Shown: one piece after another, positions 47,668 through 61,032 of the stretch
Layout: every line of letters begins with the position of its first letter
Position numbering within the stretch: the stretch's first letter is position 1
DNA from: Chitinophagaceae bacterium
Lineage (GTDB): Bacteria; Bacteroidota; Bacteroidia; Chitinophagales; Chitinophagaceae
Assembly: GCA_016786805.1 (NCBI GenBank)
Contig: JAEUVP010000557.1
Location: 8,710 to 72,709 of the forward strand
Direction: 5' to 3'
Length of the DNA stretch: 64,000 nt
Notes under the pieces: generated by a model
Told to the model about the DNA's origin: nothing
Seen by the model: only the letters and a program-made list of their open reading frames with translations
Databases searched by the model: none
Program-made: the position numbers and the translations under genes

Positions 47668-48600
47668 TTATGCACCACCCCTCCTTCCCTTTCGCCATTG
47701 ATTCGGCGTCTGCCCGAAACGCTTGCGAAATTCGGTGATAAAACCGGCGAGTGTTTCATACCCGCTTTGCGAACAAATATCCTTCAGCGGCAGGTCGGTG
47801 CTTTCCAGCAGGAATTGCGCATGTTCCATCCGGCGTTGAATGAGCCGGGGGAAAATGCCGATCCCGAAGACTTGCTCATACGCTTTCTTCAGGAAAAAAG
47901 TATTCGTGCCCGCCCTTCGCGCAAGATCACGGATCGTATGACTGGCATCCAGGTTCTCAGCAATATACTGGTCGGTCTCGTACACAAACGCCAGTTGCTG
48001 CGGACTGAAAGCTCCGGGTTGTATAAAATCGGTCGCACTCACATGATGAAACAATAATTCCCGGATCGCATTACCATAATAGAAGATGCGCAACTGTTCA
48101 GCAAAAGGATGAACGAGGATGCCATGGATAGTTTCCAGCATCAGGGCCGGCAGCGGGCGGGGTTGGGTACTGGCGGGAAGCACAGGAAGTCCGAGTTGCT
48201 CCAGCAGGGCCGGGGAATAATGAATACGAAAGTACCTGCAATCTTTAGCCGAAGTAAAGGTAGCCTGCACCTGCGGCAGATCGGTCAGCAGGTATTGACC
48301 AGGGAATAAGGAAGTATGGCTTCCGTCCGGGTAATTGAATTGCACTTCGCCATGAAGTAATGTCTCCAGCCGCAGCCAGGGTTGTTGTTCCCGGATAGTT
48401 AAGCTATAAGTTTCTTCTGCCTGCAATTGCAGCAGCGATAATTGAAACGTGGAATGACTGAACAGATGCAAATGGACAGTCAGCTGGGACTTTGCAGAAG
48501 AGAATAGCAAGGCACCAGGGATCTTTGTTCCCCGGAAGCTGCGCGGGTTGGCGGGCTTCAGCCCGATAGGTTCTCCTGTTAGTTGGTTCAGTTCCGTCAT
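47668..48600 (-). CDS. AraC-family transcriptional regulator (soluble, N-terminal ligand-binding-type domain)
   Basis: C-terminal double HTH (IRDLARRAGTNTFFLKKAYEQVFG ... SGYETLAGFITEFRKRFGQTPNQWR). Confidence 0.85.
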   Translation of the reverse strand: MTELNQLTGEPIGLKPANPRSFRGTKIPGALLFSSAKSQLTVHLHLFSHSTFQLSLLQLQAEETYSLTIREQQPWLRLETLLHGEVQFNYPDGSHTSLFPGQYLLTDLPQVQATFTSAKDCRYFRIHYSPALLEQLGLPVLPASTQPRPLPALMLETIHGILVHPFAEQLRIFYYGNAIRELLFHHVSATDFIQPGAFSPQQLAFVYETDQYIAENLDASHTIRDLARRAGTNTFFLKKAYEQVFGIGIFPRLIQRRMEHAQFLLESTDLPLKDICSQSGYETLAGFITEFRKRFGQTPNQWRKGRRGGA

Positions 48601-48796
48601 GCCTTCGTCCTTAGCGGCTTAATTTCGCAGAATTCGTGGTGCAAGCATTTTGCTACGGATAATTTTTATTTAGCAGAACAACTATGCACCAACTTTATGG
48701 ACGTTCCGTCCCACCTTCCGGTATCTTCCTCTATCGTCTTTCCTTCTTCCGGACTTTCGGTCTCCCCTTCCATCATCTTCCACCATAAACTATGGA

Positions 48797-48846
48797 CCAT
48801 GGACAATCGACCATGGACTATCGACCATGGACTATCGACCATGGAC
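48797..48846. repeat. 14-bp tandem repeat CCATGGAC(A/T)ATCGA, 3.5 copies
   Basis: Units at 48797-48810, 48811-48824 and 48825-48838, plus a partial unit at 48839-48846. Each carries the CCATGG palindrome. A pyrimidine-rich tract lies next to it at about 48700-48790. Confidence 0.85.
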
Positions 48847-48853
48847 CCTCTCC

Positions 48854-49516
48854 CTACACCACCACCAAATCATGCTTGATCGCATAAATAACGATCCCGA
48901 TCGCATTCTTCGCCCCGGTCTTCTCCTGTAACTTTTCGCGGTGACTCTCCACGGTGCGGATACTCAATGTTAACTTCGAAGCGATCTCTTTACTGGTATA
49001 TTGCTGGCACATCAGCTTAATGATATCGAGTTCACGGGGAGTGAACCGCACAATGGGTTGGTTGCGGTAGGGATTAAATTTACTGTCCGCGATCATGCGG
49101 GTGAGTTTTTCCGAGGTGGCGCTGCAATAATAGGTATTGCCTTCATAGACAGCCCGCACGGCCGTGAGCAGTTCCTGTTTATTCGTATTCTTCAGTAAAT
49201 AACCTTTCGCACCGGCTTCCAGCATATCCACGATCAGGCTGTCTTCATTGAACATCGAAAGAGCGATCACCTGCACATCGGGAAATTTTTTCCGGATAGC
49301 CTTACAGGCATCAACACCGTCCAGCACAGGCATTTTGATATCAACGATCACGACATCTGGTTTGGCCTCCTCCAAGACCTTGAGCAATTCACGGCCATGC
49401 TCTGCTTCACCCACCAGTTGAACTTCGTTCTGGTCACGCAGGAGCAGCTTAAATCCTTCCCGAAAAATTTCATGATCATCTGCGATAGCGATCTTAATAC
49501 GTGCATACATAATCAA
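48854..49516 (-). CDS. NarL/LuxR-family response regulator
   Basis: Receiver (IAIADDHEIFREG, VVIVDIKMPVLDG) plus LuxR HTH (LTPRELDIIKLMCQQYTSKEIASKLTLSIRTVESHR). Confidence 0.9.
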   Translation of the reverse strand: MIMYARIKIAIADDHEIFREGFKLLLRDQNEVQLVGEAEHGRELLKVLEEAKPDVVIVDIKMPVLDGVDACKAIRKKFPDVQVIALSMFNEDSLIVDMLEAGAKGYLLKNTNKQELLTAVRAVYEGNTYYCSATSEKLTRMIADSKFNPYRNQPIVRFTPRELDIIKLMCQQYTSKEIASKLTLSIRTVESHREKLQEKTGAKNAIGIVIYAIKHDLVVV

Positions 49517-49528
49517 ACCTTAAAAAAA

Positions 49529-50266
49529 TTATAAAGGGATCTCGAATAAAAACGCAGATCCTTTGCCCATCTTTGATTCAGTAGTCATCGTACCACCTAA
49601 AAGTTCAGTACGGTTCCGCAGGCTCAGCAGGCCCATACCGGAGCCGGGTATCGTACTATCAAAACCTTGGCCGTTATCCCGGCAGAGTACCTTAAACTTG
49701 CCGGGGACTTGTTCCATCCGGATCTCCATCAACGTTGCGTTCGCGTGTTTCACCGTGTTATGGATCACTTCCTGCAGTACACGGTACAAGTGGATCATAC
49801 AATGTTCCGGTATGTCAATCGTGGCCGGGTGTTCAAACACGATTTGCAGCGGGCTGATACTTTTTATCTTACTGATAAATTCTTCCACGGCCACAAGTAA
49901 TCCTTTTCGAAGCAGGGTACTTGGCATCAGGTCATTGGAAATTTCCCGCATCCTGGCGATCATCTCATCCAGTTGCACACTCGCCGAATCCAATTGTTCC
50001 TTGTCCGGGTGCGAACTTTGCGAAGCCAGGTCCACTTTGAACTTGATGACGGAAAGCACAGGGCCCAGTTCATCATGCAGGTCGGCGGCGATCCGGGAAC
50101 GTTCTTTCTCCATGGCTTTGATCTCCGCCAGTATATTCGCTTTTTGTAACGCGAGGTTACGCCGTTGCTGCCGGATCACCGAGAGCGCAAAAAACCCGAT
50201 GATCACTCCGATCACCACAGCAGTGATCACGATAGCAGTAAAGATTCTTGCTTCCTGGGCATCCAT
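49529..50266 (-). CDS. sensor histidine kinase, HisKA_3 type (one TM helix)
   Basis: H-box RSRIAADLHDELGPVLS. N-box NTVKHANAT. DNGQGF and GMGLLSLRNRTELLGG boxes. Confidence 0.85.
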   Translation of the reverse strand: MDAQEARIFTAIVITAVVIGVIIGFFALSVIRQQRRNLALQKANILAEIKAMEKERSRIAADLHDELGPVLSVIKFKVDLASQSSHPDKEQLDSASVQLDEMIARMREISNDLMPSTLLRKGLLVAVEEFISKIKSISPLQIVFEHPATIDIPEHCMIHLYRVLQEVIHNTVKHANATLMEIRMEQVPGKFKVLCRDNGQGFDSTIPGSGMGLLSLRNRTELLGGTMTTESKMGKGSAFLFEIPL

Positions 50267-50880
50267 AAAACAGCGATTGCGTAAATAATATTGACAACTA
50301 AATTAACATAGGCCATGATACGATACACTTCAAGCCGGAACGATTTGCTGGCATTCAATCCATAGATCCAGAATATTTCCACCAACAGGGCGTACGTAAA
50401 AAACAGGATGAACCCGGTACAGATGATGAATTTCGAATTCTTCAGCAATCCCTTTCGCTCGGCTGCCTGAACTTTGTTGATCATCGTGATACTGAGTAAG
50501 ACGATCATGAAATACGAAAAAACAATAAAGTAGGAACTGAAACTCCGGATACTGGAAAAAACGAAATTCTCAGCGATCCAGGTGGATAGGATCAGCAGTA
50601 ACAAAATACCAAAAGACAAGTTACGGTGCCGGAAGATCCTGAAATTGTAAAAGAACCACAGGATCAAAGCTACTTCGATCAGGGTATAAATATTCGTATT
50701 GACGGCATTGGAGAAACCTCTTGAAATAATGATCGTATTGATAAGTTCATTGAGCAGTCCTGTCCACATTAATAGAAAGAAAGGAAGATAAGCCCTGTCA
50801 GTTCGCCGGAAACGGACAAGGCTTATCATTGCTGCAATCGCAATGGAATAACTGAATAGCTCCACCAGGTTATAATTCAT
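50227..50880 (-). CDS. polytopic membrane protein (6 helices), possibly the detached sensor domain of the downstream kinase
   Basis: Hydrophobic throughout. Its 3' end overlaps the kinase ORF by 40 nt in another frame. Confidence 0.5.
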   Translation of the reverse strand: MNYNLVELFSYSIAIAAMISLVRFRRTDRAYLPFFLLMWTGLLNELINTIIISRGFSNAVNTNIYTLIEVALILWFFYNFRIFRHRNLSFGILLLLILSTWIAENFVFSSIRSFSSYFIVFSYFMIVLLSITMINKVQAAERKGLLKNSKFIICTGFILFFTYALLVEIFWIYGLNASKSFRLEVYRIMAYVNLVVNIIYAIAVLWMPRKQESLLLS

Positions 50881-52275: not shown

Positions 52276-54579
52276 ATGGCTCTCTTCAAAGATATTTTGG
52301 CATTAAGAGAAATCTCAGACAATGTTCTGAGAGGTTATAAATTTGAACAAACTATAAGAGAAATCCAGCCCTGGGATAGAAAACCACCGATAGCTGCCAC
52401 ATTACCATCCGAACAGTTGGATGGCATTTTTCTCTGGAAAGATCAGGCCTATTTAATTGAATCAAAGGCAAAACATGATATCATAACGCCAGGGTCACAC
52501 GACTGGGAAGACTTTGAATTAAAAATTCGAAAACGGAAAAATACAGTGATCGGATTGTTTTGTTCACTTTTTCCGGTCAGCGAAAAGCTATATGAACATG
52601 CAGAACAATTAAACAAAGAAGGGCATTTTGTTATTGTTCTGGCTGGGCACATTTGGGATGAGTTGAATCAGTACCAGCTTCCAATTAAAGACTTGCTGGA
52701 ATACATGAATTTATTTAGCAGAGTAAAATTTATGGCTAGGCCGCCTGGGATCCAGATAATTCTTGACTGGTGTTACGATAAAGAGACAACTCAAAACAAG
52801 ATAACTAACTTATGTAAACGAAATTCTTCTACATTCCTGAGGAGACATAAATCGCCATTTCACTCCTCACTATACATAACAAGAGATATTGACATTCAGG
52901 TTCATGCATTTTCCAATAACCTAAAACCCTCAACGTTACAGAAGGAAAAAGAGAAGCCAAAACAAATTTGTTTAATACGAGACTACTCAGGCTCTGGAAA
53001 AACCACATTATCTCTGGAAATAGCAAGCAGCCAGGAAATATACTGTGGAACTGGCCTTACCGCTAACGAGCAAGATATCGATGAACGATTTGCTGATTTT
53101 TTTAAATCACTGGGAGACAACTATGGCTTGCTTGAAATCATCTCATTAAATAAACCGCTGGTCTTTGTAATTGACTCCCTGGATGAGGCTAACCTGGATT
53201 TGCAGAAAAAGAAAAAAGAAATTCTTTCCATTCTGAAATTCATTGAAGAGGACCTAAACAATGCTGCTGAATTACTAAATCTGCTTGCCTATCCCTTGCT
53301 TGTGATCTTTACTATCAGGGAAGACTACTGGCGTGATTGGGAATCAATATTCGAAGGCCGAAAAAGAAATGATATTAATAAACGAATTTCTTCCTTTGCT
53401 ACTGATGAGTTACCAAAGGCTATTCACAATTACTCAAAATGTTATAGTTATTCTATAATTAATGAAATAAGTGCAGAATCAAAACGGGTGCTTTCCACAC
53501 CGATCAACCTGCTTATATTCTCGGAGACATATAAATACTACGGGGATATTGAAATTGAAGAAATTTGGGAAGGTAATGTAATAGACACTTATTTTTCGAG
53601 AAAGAAGGAAGATATTTACAAAAGGTACATTCAGGGCTTCACTTCAAAAATATTCTTTCAACTCATTTCTCTGCTGGCCTTCCATACTGTATTAACAAAA
53701 AAAAACGCTGTTAGTAAAAACGAAATTGAGTATATAATAAACGTCAACTTCCCGATCCTGAACCCATACAATGACGAAATAATAAATGCGATTGTCTCGG
53801 AATTAATACTAATTCAGGATTCTGAAAATCTGAATCAATTAAGATTCCGGCATTCACGATTTATAGAGTTCTTACTTGCATATTACATTGTATCTTCTAT
53901 TGAGAGAGAACGATCCCTTAACAAACTTGACTACTTTGCAAAAATTTCATTTGAATCAGGTATTGTATTAATGTTCAGGGTCCATGACGACATCAGATTC
54001 ATTGGGAAAACAAAATTTCCGGAAATAGTTTACCAAATAGAAGACTATTACTCAAAGTCCAATTTCTTTATGTCAAAGAAATTATTGCGTCTCCGGTCGG
54101 ATCTATCAGTGAGCCTGACAACAGGGAAAGAGGATGTTGAATTGATATTGCGAAATACAAATAGCAATGACCCGGAATTGATTTCAAATGCCTATTTCGT
54201 AATTGTGGCAAAAGCTAATCATCAACCGCAGGAAACGGTTTTGAACTTATTTATTGCATCATTTAAGAGTTGTCCAAAACTCAATGAAAGGTATAAACTG
54301 ATCGCTAAACTCGAGTATCATAATCTACTGCTGCATGAAGCAGTCTTGGATTGCATACTCCTTTCGAACCTTAGCAAGGATTGGGAGGTGTTTTTGGGAC
54401 TTATCTTAAAAAACCGGCTAAATAAAGAATTCAAAGAGTTGTGGGAGCAATCGGACAGCAATACAAAATTGGAGAAAATTATTAAAAGCACCTTTACAGA
54501 AGATTGGCGTCAGGTTATAAGACTCAGAAAGTCAATTTTAGAAAACACAATAATGGTTTTGGGAGAGCTTGAGGATTGA
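52276..54579 (+). CDS. NACHT/STAND NTPase with an N-terminal PD-(D/E)xK (Mrr-like) nuclease module and a helical C-terminal region
   Basis: N-terminus GYKFEQTIREI...LDGIF...YLIESKAK (D...ExK). Walker A DYSGSGKTTLSLEI. Walker B LVFVIDSLDEA. NACHT-type LLVIFTIRED, STPINLLIFSE and winged-helix RFRHSRFIEFLLAYY. Confidence 0.8.
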   Translation: MALFKDILALREISDNVLRGYKFEQTIREIQPWDRKPPIAATLPSEQLDGIFLWKDQAYLIESKAKHDIITPGSHDWEDFELKIRKRKNTVIGLFCSLFPVSEKLYEHAEQLNKEGHFVIVLAGHIWDELNQYQLPIKDLLEYMNLFSRVKFMARPPGIQIILDWCYDKETTQNKITNLCKRNSSTFLRRHKSPFHSSLYITRDIDIQVHAFSNNLKPSTLQKEKEKPKQICLIRDYSGSGKTTLSLEIASSQEIYCGTGLTANEQDIDERFADFFKSLGDNYGLLEIISLNKPLVFVIDSLDEANLDLQKKKKEILSILKFIEEDLNNAAELLNLLAYPLLVIFTIREDYWRDWESIFEGRKRNDINKRISSFATDELPKAIHNYSKCYSYSIINEISAESKRVLSTPINLLIFSETYKYYGDIEIEEIWEGNVIDTYFSRKKEDIYKRYIQGFTSKIFFQLISLLAFHTVLTKKNAVSKNEIEYIINVNFPILNPYNDEIINAIVSELILIQDSENLNQLRFRHSRFIEFLLAYYIVSSIERERSLNKLDYFAKISFESGIVLMFRVHDDIRFIGKTKFPEIVYQIEDYYSKSNFFMSKKLLRLRSDLSVSLTTGKEDVELILRNTNSNDPELISNAYFVIVAKANHQPQETVLNLFIASFKSCPKLNERYKLIAKLEYHNLLLHEAVLDCILLSNLSKDWEVFLGLILKNRLNKEFKELWEQSDSNTKLEKIIKSTFTEDWRQVIRLRKSILENTIMVLGELED

Positions 54580-54912: not shown

Positions 54913-56379
54913 CTACCCCCTGATCACATACTCCACATAACAACTTCCCTGGGCAAAACTGTTCGTAAACTCCTTTTTTTCTTCCCGGGTCAGTTGTCCC
55001 CGCAGTTCCTTGGCTTTCGCAGCCGTTACCACACCCTGGTCGGTTCTGATCAATCTCCCCTTTGTTTTATCAATAAGTACTTTGTATAAAGGCTTGGCCG
55101 GAAAATTGGTCGAGCCTCCCCATTCCTCCGGTATCGCATTCTGAATTAAAGGCATCATCGCAACGAGGTCGGGACTCTTGACATATTCCAGCCCGCTCAC
55201 CGAAGCAGTTCCGTTATGACTGCCATGGTGTCCCACTTTATAAAACACAGTATGGTTCAGTAATTCAACAGTGGTCTTGCCACCATTGTCTTTTAGCTGT
55301 TGACTGACATCCGGTTTATGCCATCCCATCCAGTTCCCGGATTGTGCATCACCTGGCAACAGGATCACCCGGCCGCTATCTTCAAATTCAATCGCCATGG
55401 CTAAGCTGGTATTATTCGTCAATCTCGTGGCTTTTAAAGCAATCGAAGCAGAGGTTTCCAGCCAGTCGGTTTCGATCTGCCGCCACGCAAAGGCTTCGGA
55501 ATTGTAAACCTTATTGAATGCCCGGATAGCAGCCGCATCCATAAGGAATTCATCCGCAAAAGGGGATCTGCCTTCCACCAGGTCGATCCCTGTATTTAAT
55601 AGTCGCTCTTCTTCGGGCATTTCACCTTCATCGGTGGGGCTGTTCATCGCCAGGTGGTACATTTCCTCATCTTTCAGGGCGATCTTGAAAAACTTCATGT
55701 CGCGGTCCCGTGGAGGACCCAGCATAAAAAACTTCATGCCTTCGGCACCGGTAATATCTTTAATAACCTCACCGGGTAGCCGGTATTGAATTTTTCCCTT
55801 ATTCCGCACATAGTCCATTGCCTGGTCATTGGTGGGCTTGGCCCCCTTGAGGGCTTTTTGGCCAGGTTCAAAACCTAATTCAAAATGAACCAGGTTACGG
55901 GTGTTTTGCATGCTCAGTTTTCTCTTTTCCAGGCGTTTTCCGGCATCCTTAACCGGGGGTAAAACTTGGTTGGTATTCCCCATCACCTGCAGGGCACGGT
56001 CAGCATGGTCCTGTAAACGGGCCAGTGTCTTTCCGAATTTAGTTTTCAAAACTTTGGCAACTGCATCATTCTTATTTTCGATCCAGCTCATCCAAACATC
56101 CTTGACAGTGATCTGGTCAAATATTGTCTTTGCCTGGTTAAAACCAGATACATGATCAAGATGCTGATGAGTCACGACCAGCAGGTCTAATTTCCCGCCG
56201 CAGGTCTTTTGAATATCCAGCACCGCGGGACTGATCTTCGCAGTACTCGTACTGAAACCACCACAATCGATTAGCATACTAAAACTCGTTTGACCCTGCT
56301 TCTGGAATAATAATAACAGGCAATCGCCCACCGAACCGGTATCATACATCCGGAATTTAATCGCATCAACTTTACTCAT
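54913..56379 (-). CDS. MBL-fold metallo-hydrolase (ComEC-like signature), cytoplasmic
   Basis: LLVVTHQHLDHVSGF (HxHxDH), LLPGDAQSGNW, YKVGHHGSHNG. About 270-aa insertion between motifs. No signal peptide. ATGA overlap with the upstream gene. Confidence 0.8.
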   Translation of the reverse strand: MSKVDAIKFRMYDTGSVGDCLLLLFQKQGQTSFSMLIDCGGFSTSTAKISPAVLDIQKTCGGKLDLLVVTHQHLDHVSGFNQAKTIFDQITVKDVWMSWIENKNDAVAKVLKTKFGKTLARLQDHADRALQVMGNTNQVLPPVKDAGKRLEKRKLSMQNTRNLVHFELGFEPGQKALKGAKPTNDQAMDYVRNKGKIQYRLPGEVIKDITGAEGMKFFMLGPPRDRDMKFFKIALKDEEMYHLAMNSPTDEGEMPEEERLLNTGIDLVEGRSPFADEFLMDAAAIRAFNKVYNSEAFAWRQIETDWLETSASIALKATRLTNNTSLAMAIEFEDSGRVILLPGDAQSGNWMGWHKPDVSQQLKDNGGKTTVELLNHTVFYKVGHHGSHNGTASVSGLEYVKSPDLVAMMPLIQNAIPEEWGGSTNFPAKPLYKVLIDKTKGRLIRTDQGVVTAAKAKELRGQLTREEKKEFTNSFAQGSCYVEYVIRG

Positions 56380-58412
56380 AATACAGCATTTTGAGGTTCA
56401 TGAATAGCAGCAAAAGGTTCCGTACTCCCAGGAGGTGCAAAGCCGATCTTTTCAGCATAGTCTCCAAGCATACAGCGGTATTGCATCGCAATTCTCCAGG
56501 GATGATACGCAAGGACCCTACGACCGCGGGTAGTCTTCATCGCAGGATCGAAAATGGGTTTGCAGATTGCATGTTTCAGCATTAGGTCATTCAGGTCAAA
56601 GATCAGGGTACAGCCCCCGCGAAAGGTAAACCGGTCCAGTTCATCGTTGGTCTTACTTTTTGTATAAGGGACATAAAGCTTCTTGTCCCCCGGCGCATCC
56701 TTTACCATTACAGTGCATCGTTGCATAAGCGTCATGATGATCTGGTTCTGTACCTGGCCATCGGGTCCGGTGCGGTTATGCATCTTTAAGGAATGTAATT
56801 CGATCGAAGGCACATCAATAGCAGCGCCATCCTGGCGGTTCATACGGGAATGACCGATACCCAGTTTTTTGAATGAGGAGGAGAAGACCAGGCCGGTGAT
56901 ATTTTCAAACAACTTCGGATTTTTCCAGAATACTTTCTGGCCAAACAGGTACCGGTAAAATCCCGGCTGGTCTTCTTCATCATTACCGGTAATAAAGTCC
57001 TGCGTAATGTCGAAAATTTGCCGGCGGTCGGTCTTATAGGCCAGTTGTTCCTTGAACTTTCGCAAGTAATCGCTGATCTGTTTCATGAACCCGGTTTTAT
57101 CTGCCGTTTCCGGCAATACATTATAACAGAGTGTATCAACAGATAAATTGGGAACGCCTTCAGGGAAAATACCGCGCTTGCGGAATGCATTGATAAATGC
57201 GATGCGATAATGGTGATCATCATTCAGCACTAATTCTTTATCGGCCGTGATCAGGGCACGCAGGTAATCGCCGTAATTCAGGTCAACAGGCGGGCAATAA
57301 TCAAGGGCTCGTACACACATACATAAAACATGGGAAGCAGCCTTGGAAGCTTCATCCGCAAGCCGCCCCACTAGGTCTGGATGGATATCACCTGCAGGCA
57401 TCACGCCAGTTCCACCGGTCGCTATACGAAGCAGGTCGGCCGTCCTGTTCTTATAGATAGCGACAAAGGCATCGAAGACAGCAGAGACAAGCAGGGCCCC
57501 GCGGTCATGACATTCGATCATGGTTTCATAATCTGCAGTACTCGGTACTTTCGGAATCCAGGTACCGTTGGCATCAGTGGTACCGATGGCATCCCGGAGA
57601 GAATGGTACTCTCCGGTACTCTGTCCAAATTCGACAGCTAATTTCCCAAGCATGCTTTCGGCATGCAGCTTTCCCTGTGTTTGCCGTATTTCATTCTTCA
57701 CGATTTCGGGATATGTAAAATGTTGCAACAGGGCAATGATATCAGCGAATCCCTCATGGAAACCAGCCATATCGGGATGCGATGTTTCCATATAGCGAGG
57801 GTACATCCCATCCAGGATGGCATGGGTCGTTTCATGGGCAATGATATCATGGGAAAGACAGGAATAGACAATACCACCCGGCAAAAAAGTTCCTCCTTTG
57901 GCAGGAGTGGCATTATAATAACCAAACAACAACGCTTTCCGGTCAGGACTATAATAGGCATTTTGTTCCCGCACAGCATGGGGGTAGACCAGCAGTTTCT
58001 CCACGAATTCCGTGTACATCTTTCCCTTCCGGCCATTCTTCTCTTTCCTGAATTTCTGCACATTGCTCCACATCACTTTACGCCCCAGTGCCATCTCAAA
58101 ATTTTTAATGGTGTTCATCACCACGGCATAGACCATTTGCTGGTGAAACTGCGGGTTCGTTTCACTTGGCGTCAAGCCATCCGAAGCCAGTATGGATGGC
58201 TCATTTAGATCAACCGGCTTATACACTGCATTGCTCGCGGGGTCACGGTCGATCACTTTAATATAATCGCCTTCCGGGCCCGGTAGCAACTGAACTTCCC
58301 AGGGAATTTTATAGACGATCTCATTAATATCAGCAGTGCTCAGGTTAAGGGAAGTACTCGGATCGAAAGCATATCCTTTGAGTTTCCTGAACGGGGGTCT
58401 GTTACCTGGCAT
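56376..58412 (-). CDS. thermolysin-like (gluzincin) zinc metallopeptidase with an unassigned ~300-aa C-terminal half
   Basis: EQNAYYSPDRKALLFGYY, DIIAHETTHAILDG (HExxH), GFHEGFADIIALL (third ligand Glu). N-terminus MPGNRPPFRKLKGYAF has no signal peptide. Confidence 0.8.
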   Translation of the reverse strand: MPGNRPPFRKLKGYAFDPSTSLNLSTADINEIVYKIPWEVQLLPGPEGDYIKVIDRDPASNAVYKPVDLNEPSILASDGLTPSETNPQFHQQMVYAVVMNTIKNFEMALGRKVMWSNVQKFRKEKNGRKGKMYTEFVEKLLVYPHAVREQNAYYSPDRKALLFGYYNATPAKGGTFLPGGIVYSCLSHDIIAHETTHAILDGMYPRYMETSHPDMAGFHEGFADIIALLQHFTYPEIVKNEIRQTQGKLHAESMLGKLAVEFGQSTGEYHSLRDAIGTTDANGTWIPKVPSTADYETMIECHDRGALLVSAVFDAFVAIYKNRTADLLRIATGGTGVMPAGDIHPDLVGRLADEASKAASHVLCMCVRALDYCPPVDLNYGDYLRALITADKELVLNDDHHYRIAFINAFRKRGIFPEGVPNLSVDTLCYNVLPETADKTGFMKQISDYLRKFKEQLAYKTDRRQIFDITQDFITGNDEEDQPGFYRYLFGQKVFWKNPKLFENITGLVFSSSFKKLGIGHSRMNRQDGAAIDVPSIELHSLKMHNRTGPDGQVQNQIIMTLMQRCTVMVKDAPGDKKLYVPYTKSKTNDELDRFTFRGGCTLIFDLNDLMLKHAICKPIFDPAMKTTRGRRVLAYHPWRIAMQYRCMLGDYAEKIGFAPPGSTEPFAAIHEPQNAVL

Positions 58413-58453
58413 AGTAGATGATTAAATTTGAAACAAAAATTATTAGTGATGTA

Positions 58454-59746
58454 CTATTGAAATAAGGACGGACAATATAATTTCACCTGCAACTCTGTTA
58501 GCGCTTCCGCTTGTTTGATCAGGCAATCAACTTCTTGTTTCGAAAGTGCTGTCAGGTTAGTACTGACCGAACGGGCAATCTTCTTTTCCTCCGGTGTAGG
58601 TTTAGGTATAGCATCATATCCCAGCCGGTTTTTTAAATAGGTAGTGATCTCCGTTTCATATTTCCGTGGAGCTGCAACCCACTCTGGCTTGAGCTGGTGG
58701 GCATCAATTACAAACCGGGTAATTTGTTGTTTATCCAGGTTGGTAATGAATCCGCTGATACAATTTTCTGTATCCCAGCCAAGCGAAAAATAAGCAACCT
58801 GTTTATTGACAGTGGAAGCATTATCATACACATTACGGACCATCTGGCTTTTTTTGATTCTTGACATAAATACATTCACCGTTTCCATCAGCAGGGAAAA
58901 AGTATTTTTAAAGGACATTTCACCCGAAGATCCACAGCCTGCATCACTGGTAATCACAATGCCACAGTTATACTGCCCGCTTTGCATCACTTTATGGATT
59001 CCCTGGTTATCATAAACACCGCCATCCACTAATACAGGGTGTACTTTACCTGCTTCAGCCTCATCGTCGAAGAATTCTTTATCAATAGTAACTGGTGTAA
59101 AAGCAAATGGCACGCAACTGGAGGCCATGACAGCTCGGGCTAACGGGTACTTGGCAGGCTTGAACTTTATCGGATCATCCATATACTGGTAAGTGGAGTC
59201 CTGCATCCAGTCCTTGGAAAAAGAAAAGGGCTTTGCCGTTTGCAGGTTCGTTGACCCGATCACAAGCGTAGGTTGATCCGGCAACTGTCCCAGCATAAAA
59301 TGCTGATAGAAAAATTCATCATAGATCTGTTCGATCCGTTTACTGATCGGGAATAACTGGAATTGAAACTTCAATAATACAAGTAGTAGTAACACAATGG
59401 CAATAGGAAATAGCCATGCATAGGAAGTGAACAGGAAATAACCGGAGCCAATAAACAACAGGAGAAAAACCAGGAAACGAAGCCCCATCCAGGACAACAA
59501 AATTCTCTTGATGACATTCTTTGTTTGCAGCCCCGAATACAAATCCTGGTAAAAGGCATCAAAGTCACCCTTTCTTGAACAATAACAGGCACCGGTAATG
59601 GAACCACCCGAGATCGTCGAAATGACGTTAACCCGGGAAAGAATACCCAACTGCTCTAATTTTTTTAAAGTACCGAGGTGAAAAGCAGTGGCGCGGTAAC
59701 CGCCACCGGATAAGGCAATGCCAATACGATCTTGGTGAAAGGACAT
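58454..59746 (-). CDS. patatin-like phospholipase with an internal transmembrane hairpin
   Basis: IALSGGGYRATAFHLG (oxyanion hole), VISTISGGSITG (nucleophile region), LVDGGVYDNQG (catalytic Asp). Two hydrophobic helices LRFLVFLLLFIGSGYFLF and LFPIAIVLLLLVLL lie between the Ser and Asp motifs. Confidence 0.85.
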   Translation of the reverse strand: MSFHQDRIGIALSGGGYRATAFHLGTLKKLEQLGILSRVNVISTISGGSITGACYCSRKGDFDAFYQDLYSGLQTKNVIKRILLSWMGLRFLVFLLLFIGSGYFLFTSYAWLFPIAIVLLLLVLLKFQFQLFPISKRIEQIYDEFFYQHFMLGQLPDQPTLVIGSTNLQTAKPFSFSKDWMQDSTYQYMDDPIKFKPAKYPLARAVMASSCVPFAFTPVTIDKEFFDDEAEAGKVHPVLVDGGVYDNQGIHKVMQSGQYNCGIVITSDAGCGSSGEMSFKNTFSLLMETVNVFMSRIKKSQMVRNVYDNASTVNKQVAYFSLGWDTENCISGFITNLDKQQITRFVIDAHQLKPEWVAAPRKYETEITTYLKNRLGYDAIPKPTPEEKKIARSVSTNLTALSKQEVDCLIKQAEALTELQVKLYCPSLFQ

Positions 59747-59880: not shown

Positions 59881-61032
59881 ATGAAGTTCCGGTTATCGTT
59901 ATTTGCAATTGTAGTATTGGTTCTTGCAGGTTGCAAAAAAGATCCCCCTGCTCCACCTGCTCCTGCTGTTGCCTCCTTCACGATCAACTGTGCGGCCGTA
60001 ACGGTGCAGGGAACTTATACGGGTGGTTTAACATTGAACAATACAAATACTATTACTGTTCCGGTGAATGTAACACAGGTGGGAACCTATTCGGTGAGCA
60101 CCGCCACGATCAACGGTATTACATTTTCCGGATCAGGTTCATTCAGCACTACGGGTAAGCAGTCAATAACTTTGCAGGGAACCGGTATCCCTGTCAATAA
60201 CAGTACGTATTTTTATTTGATATCCGCAGGAGCAGCAACCTGCAGTTTTCCAGTCTCCATCATAACTGCTCCCTCCGGCAATTTCGACAATGATCATATG
60301 TTGTTCGGTAATCCCAGCCGTGCTGCTACAATCATTGACAGCACCCGCAATTACCTGTTGCGCAAACAATACTATGCACTTTCGTATAATAAAGACCGGG
60401 GCACACCTAACTGGGTCAGCTGGCATTTGTTTCAGAATGATCTCGGCAGTACCTCCCGGCAGGATGATTTCCGCACCGATAATACCTTACCTGCTGGCTG
60501 GTACCAGGTTCCCGCCAATGCGTTTTCCGGCAGTGGTTTTGACCGTGGCCACAATTGTCCTTCGGGCGACCGCACGTCCTCGGTGGATGCGAACTCCTCC
60601 ACGTTTCTGATGACCAACATGATCCCGCAGGCACCGGTGATGAACCAGGGAATTTGGGCGAACATGGAAGACTCCTTACGCAGGTTGGTGAACCAGGGCA
60701 ATGAAATTTATATCATCATGGGTTCATATGGTACCGGTGGTACGGGAAATAACGGGCCAGCGACAACAGTGAACGGCGGCAATGTAACGGTACCATCCAC
60801 AGTCTGGAAAGTGGCCCTGGTCCTTCCCAACGGCAACAATGACAGCAGCCGCGTGGATAACAACACAAGACTCATTGCAGTAAACATCGCGAACTCCAAC
60901 AGCTCAACAGGAAGCTGGAAAAATTACCGCACCAGTGTCGATGCGATTGAAGCCGCCACCGGGTACGACTTATTGGACCGTCTTGCCCCAGTGTTACAGG
61001 GTGTGATCGAAGCGAGGGTGGATAATTTGTGA
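59881..61032 (+). CDS. secreted DNA/RNA non-specific endonuclease (DRGH beta-beta-alpha-Me family) lipoprotein
   Basis: Lipobox VLVLAGCKKD. N-terminal ~130-aa beta-rich domain. SGFDRGHNCPSGDR and LMTNMIPQAPVMNQGIW catalytic motifs. Confidence 0.85.
   Translation: MKFRLSLFAIVVLVLAGCKKDPPAPPAPAVASFTINCAAVTVQGTYTGGLTLNNTNTITVPVNVTQVGTYSVSTATINGITFSGSGSFSTTGKQSITLQGTGIPVNNSTYFYLISAGAATCSFPVSIITAPSGNFDNDHMLFGNPSRAATIIDSTRNYLLRKQYYALSYNKDRGTPNWVSWHLFQNDLGSTSRQDDFRTDNTLPAGWYQVPANAFSGSGFDRGHNCPSGDRTSSVDANSSTFLMTNMIPQAPVMNQGIWANMEDSLRRLVNQGNEIYIIMGSYGTGGTGNNGPATTVNGGNVTVPSTVWKVALVLPNGNNDSSRVDNNTRLIAVNIANSNSSTGSWKNYRTSVDAIEAATGYDLLDRLAPVLQGVIEARVDNL

What the first reader, a model, noticed from the sequence alone, without database searches (positions are those of the whole stretch)
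54913..59746. Patatin phospholipase, thermolysin-like Zn protease and ComEC-type MBL hydrolase in one coupled operon: candidate undescribed defence / abortive-infection system
Seen in sequence. Three co-directional minus-strand genes form the operon.
(1) 58454-59746 is a patatin with an intact GGGYR oxyanion motif, a TISGGS nucleophile region and a DGG catalytic Asp. A two-helix hydrophobic hairpin is inserted between the Ser and Asp motifs.
(2) 56376-58412 is a 678-aa gluzincin (NAYYSP..LFGYY, AHETTHAILDG, GFHEGFADII). Its last ~300 aa match nothing I recognise.
(3) 54913-56379 is an MBL-fold enzyme with HQHLDH, GDAQSGNW and VGHHGSHNG motifs. As I recall, the HHGS signature marks the putative nuclease-type MBL domain of ComEC/Rec2.
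The protease stop and MBL start overlap as ATGA (56376-56379). The patatin-protease gap is 41 nt. None of the three has an N-terminal signal peptide.
Inference. A lipid-degrading, a protein-degrading and probably a nucleic-acid-degrading enzyme are made together inside the cell, next to a NACHT-nuclease gene. That is the logic of an abortive-infection module rather than a nutrient-acquisition locus, where enzymes would be exported. Patatin effectors are established in CBASS (CapV). Here there is no CD-NTase, cyclase, SMC, helicase or NTPase in the operon, so the trigger would have to lie elsewhere. Candidates are the unknown C-terminal half of the protease (for example proteolytic licensing of the membrane patatin or the MBL enzyme) or the neighbouring NACHT protein. 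I do not recognise this trio as any named system.
Basis: partly seen in the sequence, partly recalled or inferred. Interest (0 to 1): 0.85.

Follow-up and report, generated by a model that had tools for sequence, protein, structure and literature searches.

The report
Metalloprotease-gated MBL nuclease module with patatin
The three genes are real, but the conserved unit is a mobile pair: a thermolysin-like zinc protease and a ComEC-type nuclease that looks like a locked pro-enzyme. It resembles the recently described protease-activated nucleases of bacterial antiviral immunity, but with a protease class not yet reported for them, and the patatin lipase is an optional extra.

Summary

**What is conserved.** The core is two genes. 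The 678-aa protease is followed by the 488-aa MBL gene in 78 of 80 related loci. Their divergence is correlated (r = 0.81). The pairing holds in remote branches at 28%/25% identity. The patatin is present in about 40% of loci. The NACHT neighbour is present in none.

**What the proteins are.**
- The protease model matches only M4 vibriolysin. HExxH and the downstream Glu are invariant. The C-terminal 250 aa are specific to this family.
- The MBL model matches the ComEC nuclease domain best. It carries two hypervariable, low-confidence linkers.

**Closest known system.** This is the layout of the protease-gated MBL pro-nucleases (HamMAB, Avs-MBL, Canu) published in 2025. Their reported partners are trypsin-like, caspase-like and S8 proteases. 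Some relatives here fuse an S8 domain to this metalloprotease, so the uncharacterised "S8 clade" is probably this family.

**Mobility and context.** The module sits on conjugative plasmids and integrative elements, beside CBASS, Hachiman and SIR2 genes. It is essentially absent from phages.

**Verdict.** Probably a new variant of a known kind of defence module. Cleavage, nuclease activity and phage protection are untested.

The parts
58454..59746 (-). Patatin-like phospholipase (430 aa). It is membrane-anchored by a two-helix hydrophobic hairpin (aa ~78-136) inserted between the nucleophile and Asp motifs. It is a facultative first gene of the operon.
   Evidence: Pfam Patatin 3.4e-19. G14GGYR18, S46GGS49 and D241GG243 are invariant, and the hairpin is present, in 22/22 module-linked homologues. 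There are no indel-rich linkers. Present in about 30 of 80 related loci. 6 of 9 patatin-seeded loci have the protease downstream.
58413..58453 (-). 41-nt patatin-protease intergenic spacer.
   Evidence: Comparable tight spacing occurs in homologous loci.
57123..58412 (-). Protease, N-terminal ~430 aa: a thermolysin-like (M4-like) gluzincin catalytic domain. HETTH is at aa 193-197 (nt 57822-57836). The third zinc ligand is in HEGFAD (E220).
   Evidence: AF2 model pLDDT 81, pTM 0.88. The only real PDB fold match is vibriolysin MCP-02 3nqz_B (prob 1.00, TM 0.58 on target). H193, E194, H197 and E220 are invariant in 41 sequences. HExxH is intact in 65/67 single-domain homologues. Precomputed Peptidase_M4 hits occur in three homologues.
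56379..57125 (-). Protease, C-terminal domain (aa 430-678): a helical part plus a beta-sheet domain. It is family-specific and fast-evolving. It is a candidate sensor or regulatory domain (inference).
   Evidence: No PDB fold match. An exhaustive search of 1.84 billion representatives finds it only at the C-terminus of this protease family (143 hits, no other architecture). It is much less conserved than the catalytic part.
54913..56379 (-). MBL-fold hydrolase (488 aa): a ComEC-type nuclease core with two large insertions. It is the putative pro-nuclease. Its start overlaps the protease stop (ATGA, 56376-56379).
   Evidence: AF2 pLDDT 79.5. The best PDB fold match is the ComEC MBL domain 9ic4 (E 8e-7; 457 alignment columns for a 266-aa target), followed by CPSF73 and RNase Z. 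PADLOC LmuA 1.4e-17, RTasMBL and Avs1a; NCBIfam Avs1a 4e-13, all far below the family cut-offs. H71, H73, D75, H76, D344, H384 and H385 are invariant.
55795..56082 (-). MBL insertion/linker 1 (aa ~100-195): a long helical hairpin (106-167) followed by a low-confidence, indel-rich stretch (~168-195).
   Evidence: alignment indels after positions 168 and 195; pLDDT < 50 at 174-179.
55486..55686 (-). MBL insertion/linker 2 (aa ~232-298): a disordered, hypervariable loop flanked by the invariant blocks LGPP (220-223), SPF (272-274) and WRQIE (299-303).
   Evidence: pLDDT < 50 at 232-263; 54 and 36 alignment insert columns after positions 249 and 286.
52276..54579 (+). Convergent neighbour: a Mrr-like nuclease fused to a NACHT STAND NTPase (767 aa). 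It is NOT part of the module. It is probably an independent defence gene.
   Evidence: 0/80 co-occurrence. Homologues are named NACHT / Mrr domain proteins, and some carry PF05729. GC is 0.35 against ~0.43-0.47 around it.

Best explanation
The locus encodes a horizontally mobile, cytoplasmic protease-effector module.

Its core is a thermolysin-like zinc metalloprotease and, translationally coupled downstream, a ComEC-type MBL nuclease. The nuclease is made as an inactive pro-enzyme because two long insertions (linkers) interrupt its catalytic core.

Proposed mechanism, by analogy with HamMAB, Avs-MBL and Canu:
1. A signal of phage or foreign-DNA invasion is sensed, most likely through the protease's fast-evolving C-terminal domain and a change in its dimeric state.
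2. This switches the protease on.
3. The protease cuts the two MBL linkers.
4. The freed nuclease degrades DNA, causing growth arrest or death of the infected cell.

In this window and about 40% of relatives, a membrane-anchored patatin phospholipase is co-expressed as an additional, exchangeable effector acting on the inner membrane.

Shown here: the genes and intact catalytic motifs, the folds, the conserved pairing and co-divergence, the two-linker architecture, the mobility, and the defence-gene neighbourhoods.

Inferred: that the MBL is the protease's substrate, that it is a DNase, what the trigger is, the role of the patatin, and the anti-phage phenotype.
For: **Pairing.**
- The MBL gene lies directly downstream of the protease, on the same strand, in 78/80 genome loci.
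- The pairing also holds in the tandem-protease clade, in a remote branch at 28%/25% identity, and in duplicated modules.
- In the window the two genes overlap by 4 nt.
- Pairwise distances of protease and MBL correlate: r = 0.81, Mantel p = 0.001, n = 75. The same kind of co-evolution is reported for published pairs (PMC12799240; PMC12642450).

**Folds.**
- Protease: M4-like, with HExxH and Glu invariant.
- MBL: ComEC nuclease domain is the top match, with the metal ligands invariant.

**Zymogen-like layout.** There are two indel-rich, low-pLDDT linkers between invariant core blocks. The published MBL zymogens are cut at two linker sites.

**Dimer hint.** In tandem-duplicated homologues the C-terminal copy always keeps HExxH. 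The N-terminal copy has usually lost the catalytic Glu (HQxxH 23, other 3, intact 7 of 33).

**Mobility and context.**
- 65 plasmids carry it, 35 of them conjugative.
- It lies on integrase/primase elements.
- It lies next to CBASS, Hachiman, SIR2 and AAA-HNH genes.
- Flanks differ in the closest relatives.
- Cross-phylum identities equal within-family ones.

**Cytoplasmic.** No signal peptides.
Against: - No experiment. Cleavage, DNase activity and phage protection are all untested.
- I could not inspect model coordinates or run a complex prediction, so 'the insertions block the active site' is not shown.
- Insertion 1 is largely a structured helical hairpin, unlike the disordered loops described for HamM.
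- Sequence homology to classical defence MBLs is limited to the N-terminal ~80-100 aa.
- No canonical sensor (STAND, helicase, SMC) is in the operon.
- In chromosomal Bacteroidota loci the immediate flanks are mostly ordinary genes. Only roughly 15 of 136 flanking genes hit any PADLOC model (my estimate from the family table), and the robust defence-type hits are fewer.
- Plasmid contexts are few, and two of them (L097, L098) are not independent.
- The MBL could act on RNA or another phosphodiester instead of DNA.
Confidence: 0.55

Rival explanations
1. One reading: an obligate three-enzyme system (lipase + protease + nuclease). Its trigger is the neighbouring NACHT protein, or proteolytic licensing of the patatin.
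For: The three genes are tightly coupled here. The same trio recurs in distant lineages and on plasmids. 6 of 9 loci seeded by close patatin relatives carry the protease.
Against: About 60% of loci lack the patatin. Patatins are swapped between modules: protease 79% identical but patatin 48% in L103, against 72%/72% in L105. In some loci a Tle1-like lipase is adjacent instead. The NACHT homologue is absent from 80/80 loci. The patatin alignment has no linker or zymogen features.
Confidence: 0.08
2. A plasmid or integrative-element addiction (post-segregational killing) or stress-death module, not an anti-phage system. The protease-gated nuclease kills cells that lose the element or suffer a particular stress.
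For: Frequent location on plasmids and integrase elements. No recognisable phage sensor. Weak defence-island signal in chromosomal loci. Evans et al. raise stress-response roles for protease-effector modules.
Against: There is no antitoxin-like small labile partner. Most chromosomal copies are not on obvious elements. Neighbours in annotated records are bona fide anti-phage systems (CBASS, Hachiman, SIR2). The closest characterised relatives of the logic are all anti-phage.
Confidence: 0.15
3. The protease and the MBL act in parallel, not in a cascade. For example, the protease degrades phage or host proteins while the MBL hydrolase is constitutively competent or regulated otherwise. The insertions would be substrate-binding or oligomerisation domains and not gates.
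For: Insertion 1 is a well-folded helical hairpin. Effector-less defence proteases exist. The direction of action is only inferred.
Against: There is strict 1:1 pairing and co-divergence, with the MBL evolving faster in its linkers. The two-linker layout is as in the proven zymogens. An always-active cytoplasmic ComEC-type nuclease would be toxic.
Confidence: 0.15
4. Exported digestive or antibacterial enzymes (nutrient acquisition, or T6SS/T9SS-type toxins).
For: An adjacent secreted lipoprotein Endonuclease_NS in the window. Tle1-like lipases and an RHS/Tc toxin locus lie near some relatives. M4 proteases are classically secreted.
Against: No signal peptide, lipobox, propeptide or Por_Secre_tail on any of the three proteins or their aligned homologues. 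The patatin hairpin keeps both catalytic halves on the cytoplasmic side. No VgrG/PAAR/immunity genes recur. The Endonuclease_NS gene is not conserved with the module (0/80).
Confidence: 0.04

Closest known systems
Protease-gated MBL pro-nuclease modules: HamMAB (Hachiman), Avs1/2/4-trypsin-MBL, Lamassu and DRT variants (Tuck et al., Science 2025, PMC12799240; Huang et al., bioRxiv 2025.09.03.673762; Evans et al., PMC12642450)
   Same: A ComEC-like MBL nuclease encoded next to a co-evolving protease. The MBL core is interrupted by two flexible insertions. The proteins are cytoplasmic and the modules are mobile and found in defence-island contexts. PADLOC/NCBIfam models of these MBLs (LmuA, RTasMBL, Avs1a) are the best sequence hits of the window MBL.
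   Different: The protease here is a zinc metalloprotease (M4-like gluzincin), not a trypsin-like serine protease. It is a free-standing gene and is not fused to HamA/Avs/LmuA. The gene order is protease then MBL, the opposite of the trypsin modules. The MBL is larger (488 against ~325-390 aa), with a structured hairpin in insertion 1. Homology is confined to the N-terminal ~100 aa and scores are far below the family cut-offs. No known sensor is present.
Canu (caspase-nuclease, CanABC; Tuck et al. 2025)
   Same: The nuclease gene lies downstream of a stand-alone protease gene that is not fused to a classical sensor. Accessory genes are variable. The proposed logic is the same (protease licenses the MBL DNase).
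   Different: Canu uses a caspase-family cysteine protease with Ig-like/TPR domains and a CanB partner. Here there is a gluzincin with an unrelated C-terminal domain, no CanB equivalent, and an optional patatin.
'S8 subtilisin-like / subtilase' MBL clade (Clade 3 of Evans et al.; fig. S2 of Tuck et al.), listed but uncharacterised
   Same: Relatives of the window pair on Methylorubrum and Phyllobacterium plasmids encode Peptidase_S8 fused N-terminally to this same gluzincin (43% identical, HETTH intact). They are followed by the same MBL family, at 31-34% identity over the full length. The published clade is therefore probably this MBL family.
   Different: The window protein and the 80 nearest genome relatives have no S8 domain. 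The constant partner is the metalloprotease, which the papers do not mention. The identity of the published clade with this family could not be checked against their sequence lists.
Thermolysin/vibriolysin family (MEROPS M4)
   Same: HExxH plus a downstream Glu (gluzincin). The overall two-lobed fold is similar (Foldseek prob 1.00 to 3nqz_B).
   Different: About 10% identity. The window protein has no Pfam Peptidase_M4 hit. It has no signal peptide or FTP/PepSY propeptide. It is cytoplasmic and has an extra 250-aa C-terminal domain.
CBASS patatin effector CapV
   Same: A patatin-fold phospholipase used as a membrane-disrupting death effector.
   Different: There is no CD-NTase in the operon. 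Only a weak PADLOC phospholipase-effector hit (6.8e-4) was found. The patatin here has a TM hairpin insertion and a different C-terminal region. Where CBASS is adjacent (L096, L098) it is a separate operon.

Membership tests
Protease-gated MBL pro-nuclease modules (HamM / Avs-MBL / CanC type) | MBL-fold nuclease related to the ComEC C-terminal nuclease domain, with intact metal-binding motifs | tested here: met
   Foldseek top hit 9ic4, ComEC domain, E 8e-7. H71-x-H-x-D-H76, D344 and H384/H385 are invariant.
Protease-gated MBL pro-nuclease modules (HamM / Avs-MBL / CanC type) | Two insertions/linkers relative to ComEC that gate the active site | tested here: inconclusive
   Two indel-rich, low-pLDDT insertions exist at ~100-195 and ~232-298. 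Occlusion of the active site could not be examined because no model coordinates or complex prediction were available.
Protease-gated MBL pro-nuclease modules (HamM / Avs-MBL / CanC type) | Adjacent, co-evolving protease gene | tested here: met
   78/80 loci. r = 0.81, Mantel p = 0.001. The pairing is kept in remote and duplicated modules.
Protease-gated MBL pro-nuclease modules (HamM / Avs-MBL / CanC type) | Partner protease belongs to the trypsin-like, caspase/CHAT or S8 class | tested here: not met
   The window protease is an M4-like gluzincin with no Ser/Cys protease domain. An S8 domain is fused only in a minority of relatives.
Protease-gated MBL pro-nuclease modules (HamM / Avs-MBL / CanC type) | Protease linked to an infection sensor (STAND, Hachiman, Lamassu, DRT, etc.) | tested here: not met
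   No such domain or gene is in the operon. The C-terminal domain is family-specific and of unknown function. Hachiman is adjacent only in L097, L098 and L102.
Protease-gated MBL pro-nuclease modules (HamM / Avs-MBL / CanC type) | Site-specific cleavage converts the MBL into a DNase; the system protects against phage | not testable with these tools
   Requires biochemistry and phage challenge.
AVAST type 1 Avs1a (NCBIfam NF041809) / Lamassu LmuA-MBL / 6A-MBL | Score above the curated family cut-off, and presence of the partner genes (Avs STAND; LmuB/LmuC; 6A partner) | tested here: not met
   Avs1a 48.8 bits against cut-off 420. 6A-MBL 17.8 against 220. LmuA matches only the N-terminal ~100 aa. 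No STAND/SMC partner is in the operon.
MEROPS M4 / Pfam Peptidase_M4 (thermolysin family) | HExxH + Glu zinc site and a thermolysin-like fold | tested here: met
   (3nqz_B, prob 1.00, TM 0.58 on target, 10% identity).
MEROPS M4 / Pfam Peptidase_M4 (thermolysin family) | Significant match to the family profile; secreted pre-pro-enzyme architecture | tested here: not met
   The window protein has no Pfam hit. Only faint or precomputed hits occur in a few homologues. No signal peptide or propeptide.
Patatin-like phospholipase (PF01734) | Gly-rich oxyanion motif, Ser nucleophile motif and DG[GA] Asp; profile match above cut-off | tested here: met
   70.2 bits against cut-off 27.7. The motifs are invariant in 22 homologues.
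CBASS | CD-NTase cyclase with a nucleotide-activated effector in the same operon | tested here: not met
   No cyclase in the window operon. CBASS is a separate neighbouring operon in L096 and L098.

The most novel reading that the evidence does not exclude
A self-contained immune module in which a thermolysin-like metalloprotease is both the infection sensor (through its fast-evolving C-terminal domain and dimerisation) and the activator. It would proteolytically license a ComEC-type DNase and, where present, work together with a membrane patatin. That would make it the first metalloprotease-driven zymogen cascade in prokaryotic immunity. It would also be the true conserved partner of the MBL clade so far labelled 'S8-associated'.
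Probability: 0.3. Interest if true: 0.8.

Novelty: new variant of a known kind. Interest (0 to 1): 0.62.

Why it matters
Protease-activated MBL nucleases were established in 2025 as a widespread logic of bacterial immunity, with three partner protease classes.

This locus points to a large family: at least 8000 protein clusters across Bacteroidota, Pseudomonadota, Actinomycetota, Acidobacteriota, Planctomycetota and Deinococcota. In it the partner is a zinc metalloprotease that standard domain libraries do not recognise. If confirmed, four things follow:
- It adds a fourth catalytic class to proteolysis-gated immunity.
- It explains the uncharacterised 'S8' MBL clade.
- It offers a minimal two-gene system, with no STAND, helicase or SMC sensor, in which to study how a protease senses infection.
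- It shows a nuclease and a membrane lipase being deployed from one operon.

Copies on Agrobacterium and Rhizobium plasmids make it experimentally tractable.

Tried and rejected
- **Fusion idea.** I suspected the ~1170-aa homologues were protease-MBL fusions. They are tandem duplications of the protease.
- **Sequence searches against PDB.** Nothing for the protease, the MBL or the NACHT protein.
- **C-terminal domain of the protease.** No fold match. No occurrence in other architectures among 1.84 billion representatives.
- **Phage carriage.** Only 2 remote relatives in 2.9 million viral contigs. Only 2 partial or remote hits in GenBank phages.
- **L090.** An M1-type peptidase sits next to an orphan patatin. 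It is unrelated to this protease (hhalign prob 0.2%), so I dropped it.
- **Hachiman as an obligate partner.** Rejected. It is present only in L097, L098 and L102.
- **Patatin as a zymogen.** No linker signature.
- **Island hallmarks in the window.** No tRNA, no flanking repeats, no Rfam family. The sigma-70 promoter scan is uninformative for Bacteroidota.
- **Literature.** No paper in the held library names a zincin/M4 + MBL (+ patatin) system. The 6A-MBL and modularity papers are unrelated.
- **Full-length homology to a classical short defence MBL.** Only the N-terminal 81 columns align.


Full report
**1. Observation**

The window (a Chitinophagaceae MAG; the protease is 100% identical to NCBI JNJ86_16960) contains the three co-directional minus-strand ORFs at the stated coordinates.

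The protease stop and MBL start overlap as ATGA, and the patatin-protease spacer is 41 nt.

Family scans gave the following:
- Pfam confirms Patatin (3.4e-19).
- Pfam gives a weak N-terminal Lactamase_B hit (6.4e-06).
- The 678-aa protein has no hit in Pfam, NCBIfam, PADLOC or PDB sequences.

None of the three proteins has an N-terminal hydrophobic segment. The patatin has an internal two-helix hairpin at about 78-136.

**2. What is conserved**

Neighbourhood of the protease:
- The protease family is very large: 8000 of 8000 scored candidates were significant.
- A scan of one genome per GTDB species found 578 or more relatives. I analysed the best 80 loci.
- tblastn with the window proteins shows the MBL gene directly downstream of the protease, on the same strand, in 78 of 80 loci.
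- The two exceptions are L059, where the contig ends, and L077, whose +1 gene is not an MBL.
- The patatin is present in about 30 loci, usually at -1 and sometimes downstream.
- Divergent 540-640-aa patatins occupy the same position in several loci.
- The NACHT gene, the Endonuclease_NS gene and ORF119 are present in 0 of 80 loci.
- No other neighbour recurs.

Reverse test from the patatin: 6 of 9 loci seeded by close patatin relatives have the protease immediately downstream. One of these (L085) holds only a 47-aa remnant. Three loci lack the pair.

Co-divergence:

| Pair compared | n | r |
|---|---|---|
| Protease vs MBL | 75 | 0.81 |
| Protease vs patatin | 22 | 0.61 |

- Mantel p = 0.001 for both. 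The MBL evolves faster than the protease (mean distance 0.63 against 0.44).
- Patatins are exchanged between modules. In L103 the protease is 79% identical to the window's but the patatin only 48%. In L105 both are 72%.

So the unit is a protease-MBL pair with a facultative, swappable lipase.

**3. The proteins**

Protease:
- The AF2 model is confident (pLDDT 81, pTM 0.88).
- Its only meaningful PDB match is the M4 protease vibriolysin MCP-02 (prob 1.00, TM 0.58 on the target, 10% identity).
- H193, E194, H197 and E220 are invariant.
- Residues 430-678 form a helical-plus-beta domain with no fold match.
- An exhaustive HMMER search of 1.84 billion representatives finds that domain only at the C-terminus of this family (143 hits). 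It is family-specific and fast-evolving.

Longer homologues:
- About 40% of the top homologues are ~1170 aa. I first suspected protease-MBL fusions. They are tandem protease duplications.
- The C-terminal copy always keeps HExxH. The N-terminal copy has usually lost the catalytic Glu (HQxxH in 23 of 33).
- This pseudo-protease/protease arrangement suggests the enzyme works as a dimer.

MBL:
- The AF2 model has pLDDT 79.5.
- It matches the ComEC beta-lactamase-like nuclease domain best (9ic4, E 8e-7). The 266-residue target spans 457 alignment columns. CPSF73 and RNase Z follow.
- The metal ligands are invariant.
- The extra ~190 residues form two insertions. The first is a helical hairpin (106-167) followed by a low-confidence stretch. 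The second is a disordered loop (232-263).
- Across 75 homologues, exactly these regions (~125-195 and ~243-298) are hypervariable and indel-rich, and they lie between invariant blocks.
- The best profile hits are defence-type MBLs: PADLOC LmuA 1.4e-17, RTasMBL, Avs1a and PDC-M48B; NCBIfam Avs1a 4e-13.
- Those hits cover only the N-terminal ~100 aa and fall far below the family cut-offs.

Patatin:
- The catalytic motifs and the hairpin are invariant in 22 module-linked homologues.
- The alignment has no linker-like regions.

**4. Comparison with what is known**

Three papers establish the closest known system: Tuck et al. (Science 2025, PMC12799240), Huang et al. (bioRxiv 2025.09.03.673762) and Evans et al. 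(PMC12642450). Their findings:
- ComEC-like MBL proteins in Hachiman, AVAST, Lamassu, DRT and 'canu' loci are pro-nucleases blocked by two insertion loops.
- A co-evolving partner protease cuts both loops and releases a Zn-dependent dsDNase, giving abortive-infection-type defence.
- Both phylogenetic surveys list exactly three partner protease classes: trypsin-like, caspase/CHAT and S8 subtilisin-like.
- The S8 clade is not characterised.
- None of the three papers mentions a metalloprotease or a patatin.

The link to the S8 clade comes from annotated plasmids:
- On Methylorubrum extorquens pCMU01, the gene under my protease match is annotated 'S8 family serine peptidase'.
- That protein is a fusion of Peptidase_S8 (aa 6-290) with this gluzincin (aa 422-993, 43% identical, HETTH intact).
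- It is followed by an MBL that is 34% identical to the window MBL over its full length, insertions included.
- A Phyllobacterium plasmid has the same fusion.

I therefore infer that the published 'S8 clade' is this MBL family. Its constant partner would be the metalloprotease, which Pfam does not see, and S8 would be an accessory N-terminal fusion in a minority of members. This identity is an inference. I could not compare with the authors' sequence lists.

**5. Defence or not**

Against a strong claim:
- In chromosomal, mostly Bacteroidota loci the nearest flanking genes are largely ordinary (AraC regulators, TonB receptors, glycosidases).
- I estimate that only about 15 of 136 flanking genes hit any PADLOC model, and the robust defence-type hits are fewer.

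For a defence role, mobility:
- The module is on 65 PLSDB plasmids, 35 of them conjugative.
- L082 sits beside an integrase, HTH_17 and DUF3631.
- L103 sits next to integrase fragments.
- L105/L106 is an integrase plus D5_N primase element that carries two diverged modules in tandem.
- L060 also has two modules.
- The closest relatives (79% and 72% protease identity) have flanks unrelated to the window's.
- Proteases from Acidobacteriota, Planctomycetota and Desulfobacterota are as similar to the window's (47-49%) as those of many Chitinophagaceae. This indicates horizontal transfer.

For a defence role, annotated contexts:

| Locus | Neighbours |
|---|---|
| L098 | CBASS on one side of the trio, Hachiman on the other |
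| L097 | Hachiman directly after the trio |
| L096 | CBASS, ImmA/HTH, AAA_21-HNH |
| L094 | SIR2 x2, IS5, Tle1-like lipase |
| L095 | Integrase, recombinase, SMC-like ATPase |
| L099, L100 | ThiF/E1 genes |
| L101 | No defence neighbours |

Other points:
- The module is essentially absent from phages.
- In the window, the convergent neighbour is a low-GC Mrr-NACHT STAND protein. Its homologues in Sphingobacterium are 76-77% identical. It is plausibly an independent defence gene. It is never linked to the module elsewhere.

**6. Mechanism (committed, with status)**

Shown:
- An intact gluzincin protease and an intact ComEC-type MBL are co-transcribed, co-inherited and cytoplasmic.
- The MBL has two variable linkers.

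Inferred, by analogy with HamMAB, Avs-MBL and Canu:
- The protease cuts the linkers and activates a DNase that arrests or kills the infected cell.
- The trigger acts through the C-terminal domain and/or the dimer state of the protease.
- The patatin is a second, membrane-directed effector. It is not evidently a zymogen.

I put 0.55 on this overall, and about 0.9 on the narrower statement that the protease and MBL form one functional module. The rivals are listed separately: parallel action, an addiction or stress module, an obligate trio with a NACHT trigger, and exported enzymes.

**7. Novelty and verdict**

The kind of system, a protease-gated MBL pro-nuclease, is known. Four things are not described in the literature I could search:
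- the metalloprotease partner;
- its stand-alone form without a sensor;
- the pseudo-protease tandem forms;
- the recurrent patatin or Tle1-like lipase accessory.

The protease is unnamed in NCBIfam (June 2026), Pfam and PADLOC v2. I rate it a new variant of a known kind, with interest 0.62. It is solid, widespread and testable, but it extends a paradigm and does not break one, and no function has been demonstrated.

Noticed in passing
window 52276-54579 (+): A 767-aa protein with an Mrr-like N-terminus and a NACHT STAND NTPase. GC is 0.35 against ~0.45 around it. The closest homologues (76-77% identical) are in Sphingobacterium and other families, so it was probably acquired horizontally. PADLOC v2 and NCBIfam do not recognise it. 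It is likely an independent bNACHT/Avs-like defence gene.
   Followed up: partly
window 59881-61032 (+): A lipoprotein-type (LAGC lipobox) DNA/RNA non-specific endonuclease (Pfam Endonuclease_NS, 5.5e-50), divergently transcribed from the patatin. It is a secreted nuclease that is not conserved with the module (0/80).
   Followed up: partly
P0041 and ~50 other homologues; loci L081, L082: Tandem-duplicated proteases of ~1170 aa. The N-terminal copy has usually lost the catalytic Glu (HQxxH) and the C-terminal copy is always intact. They are still followed by an MBL. L082 also has a patatin and lies next to an integrase.
   Followed up: yes
L094 5741-8839; L101 5270-8830: Peptidase_S8 fused to the N-terminus of the gluzincin protease on alphaproteobacterial plasmids, giving two protease domains of different catalytic class in one polypeptide upstream of the MBL.
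   Followed up: partly
L045 13500-14477: In Flavisolibacter longurius the operon patatin-protease-MBL is followed, 46 nt later on the same strand, by a second, classical short defence-type MBL (325 aa; PDC-M48B 4e-38, LmuA 2e-35).
   Followed up: partly
L105/L106 5185-13497; L060 1429-9629: Two diverged protease-MBL modules (43%/32% identical to each other's counterparts) sit side by side. In L105 they are cargo of an integrase + HTH_17 + D5_N/DUF5906 primase element.
   Followed up: yes
L085 4493-4636: A patatin 75% identical to the window's is followed by only a 47-aa N-terminal remnant of the protease. This looks like decay or deletion of the protease-MBL pair.
   Followed up: no
L097 10600-14102; L098 10592-14169; L102 1894-4895: Hachiman-type genes (DUF1837 + helicase) lie immediately beside the module on rhizobial plasmids. 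In L102 the pair is a remote branch (28%/25% identity). This could be co-localisation or an unfused analogue of HamMAB.
   Followed up: partly
L094 3639-4859; L099 5699-6742; L029 4969-5373: A Tle1-like (DUF2235) phospholipase sits next to the protease-MBL pair in place of a patatin. This suggests the lipase accessory is exchangeable between families.
   Followed up: partly
L099, L062, L100, L045 (within 10 kb of the module): ThiF/E1-type adenylyltransferase genes recur near the module, and an MPN/JAB protein lies nearby in L095. One flank gave strong PADLOC E1-E2/E2 hits. This may be a ubiquitin-like defence operon sharing the islands.
   Followed up: no
L083 (IMG/VR 390-kb contig); LR756511.1 (595-kb 'uncultured phage'); MT836994.1: Two very large viral-labelled contigs encode a remote (24-26%) relative of the gluzincin domain. 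A 9.5-kb 'Bacteriophage sp.' contig from human faeces has a 44.6% match to residues 1-434. No MBL hit in L083; the flanks of LR756511.1 and MT836994.1 were not examined.
   Followed up: no
window 47668-50880 (-): An AraC-type regulator, a LuxR-type response regulator, a histidine kinase and a polytopic membrane protein lie just beyond the NACHT gene. This is ordinary two-component signalling, unrelated to the module in other genomes.
   Followed up: no
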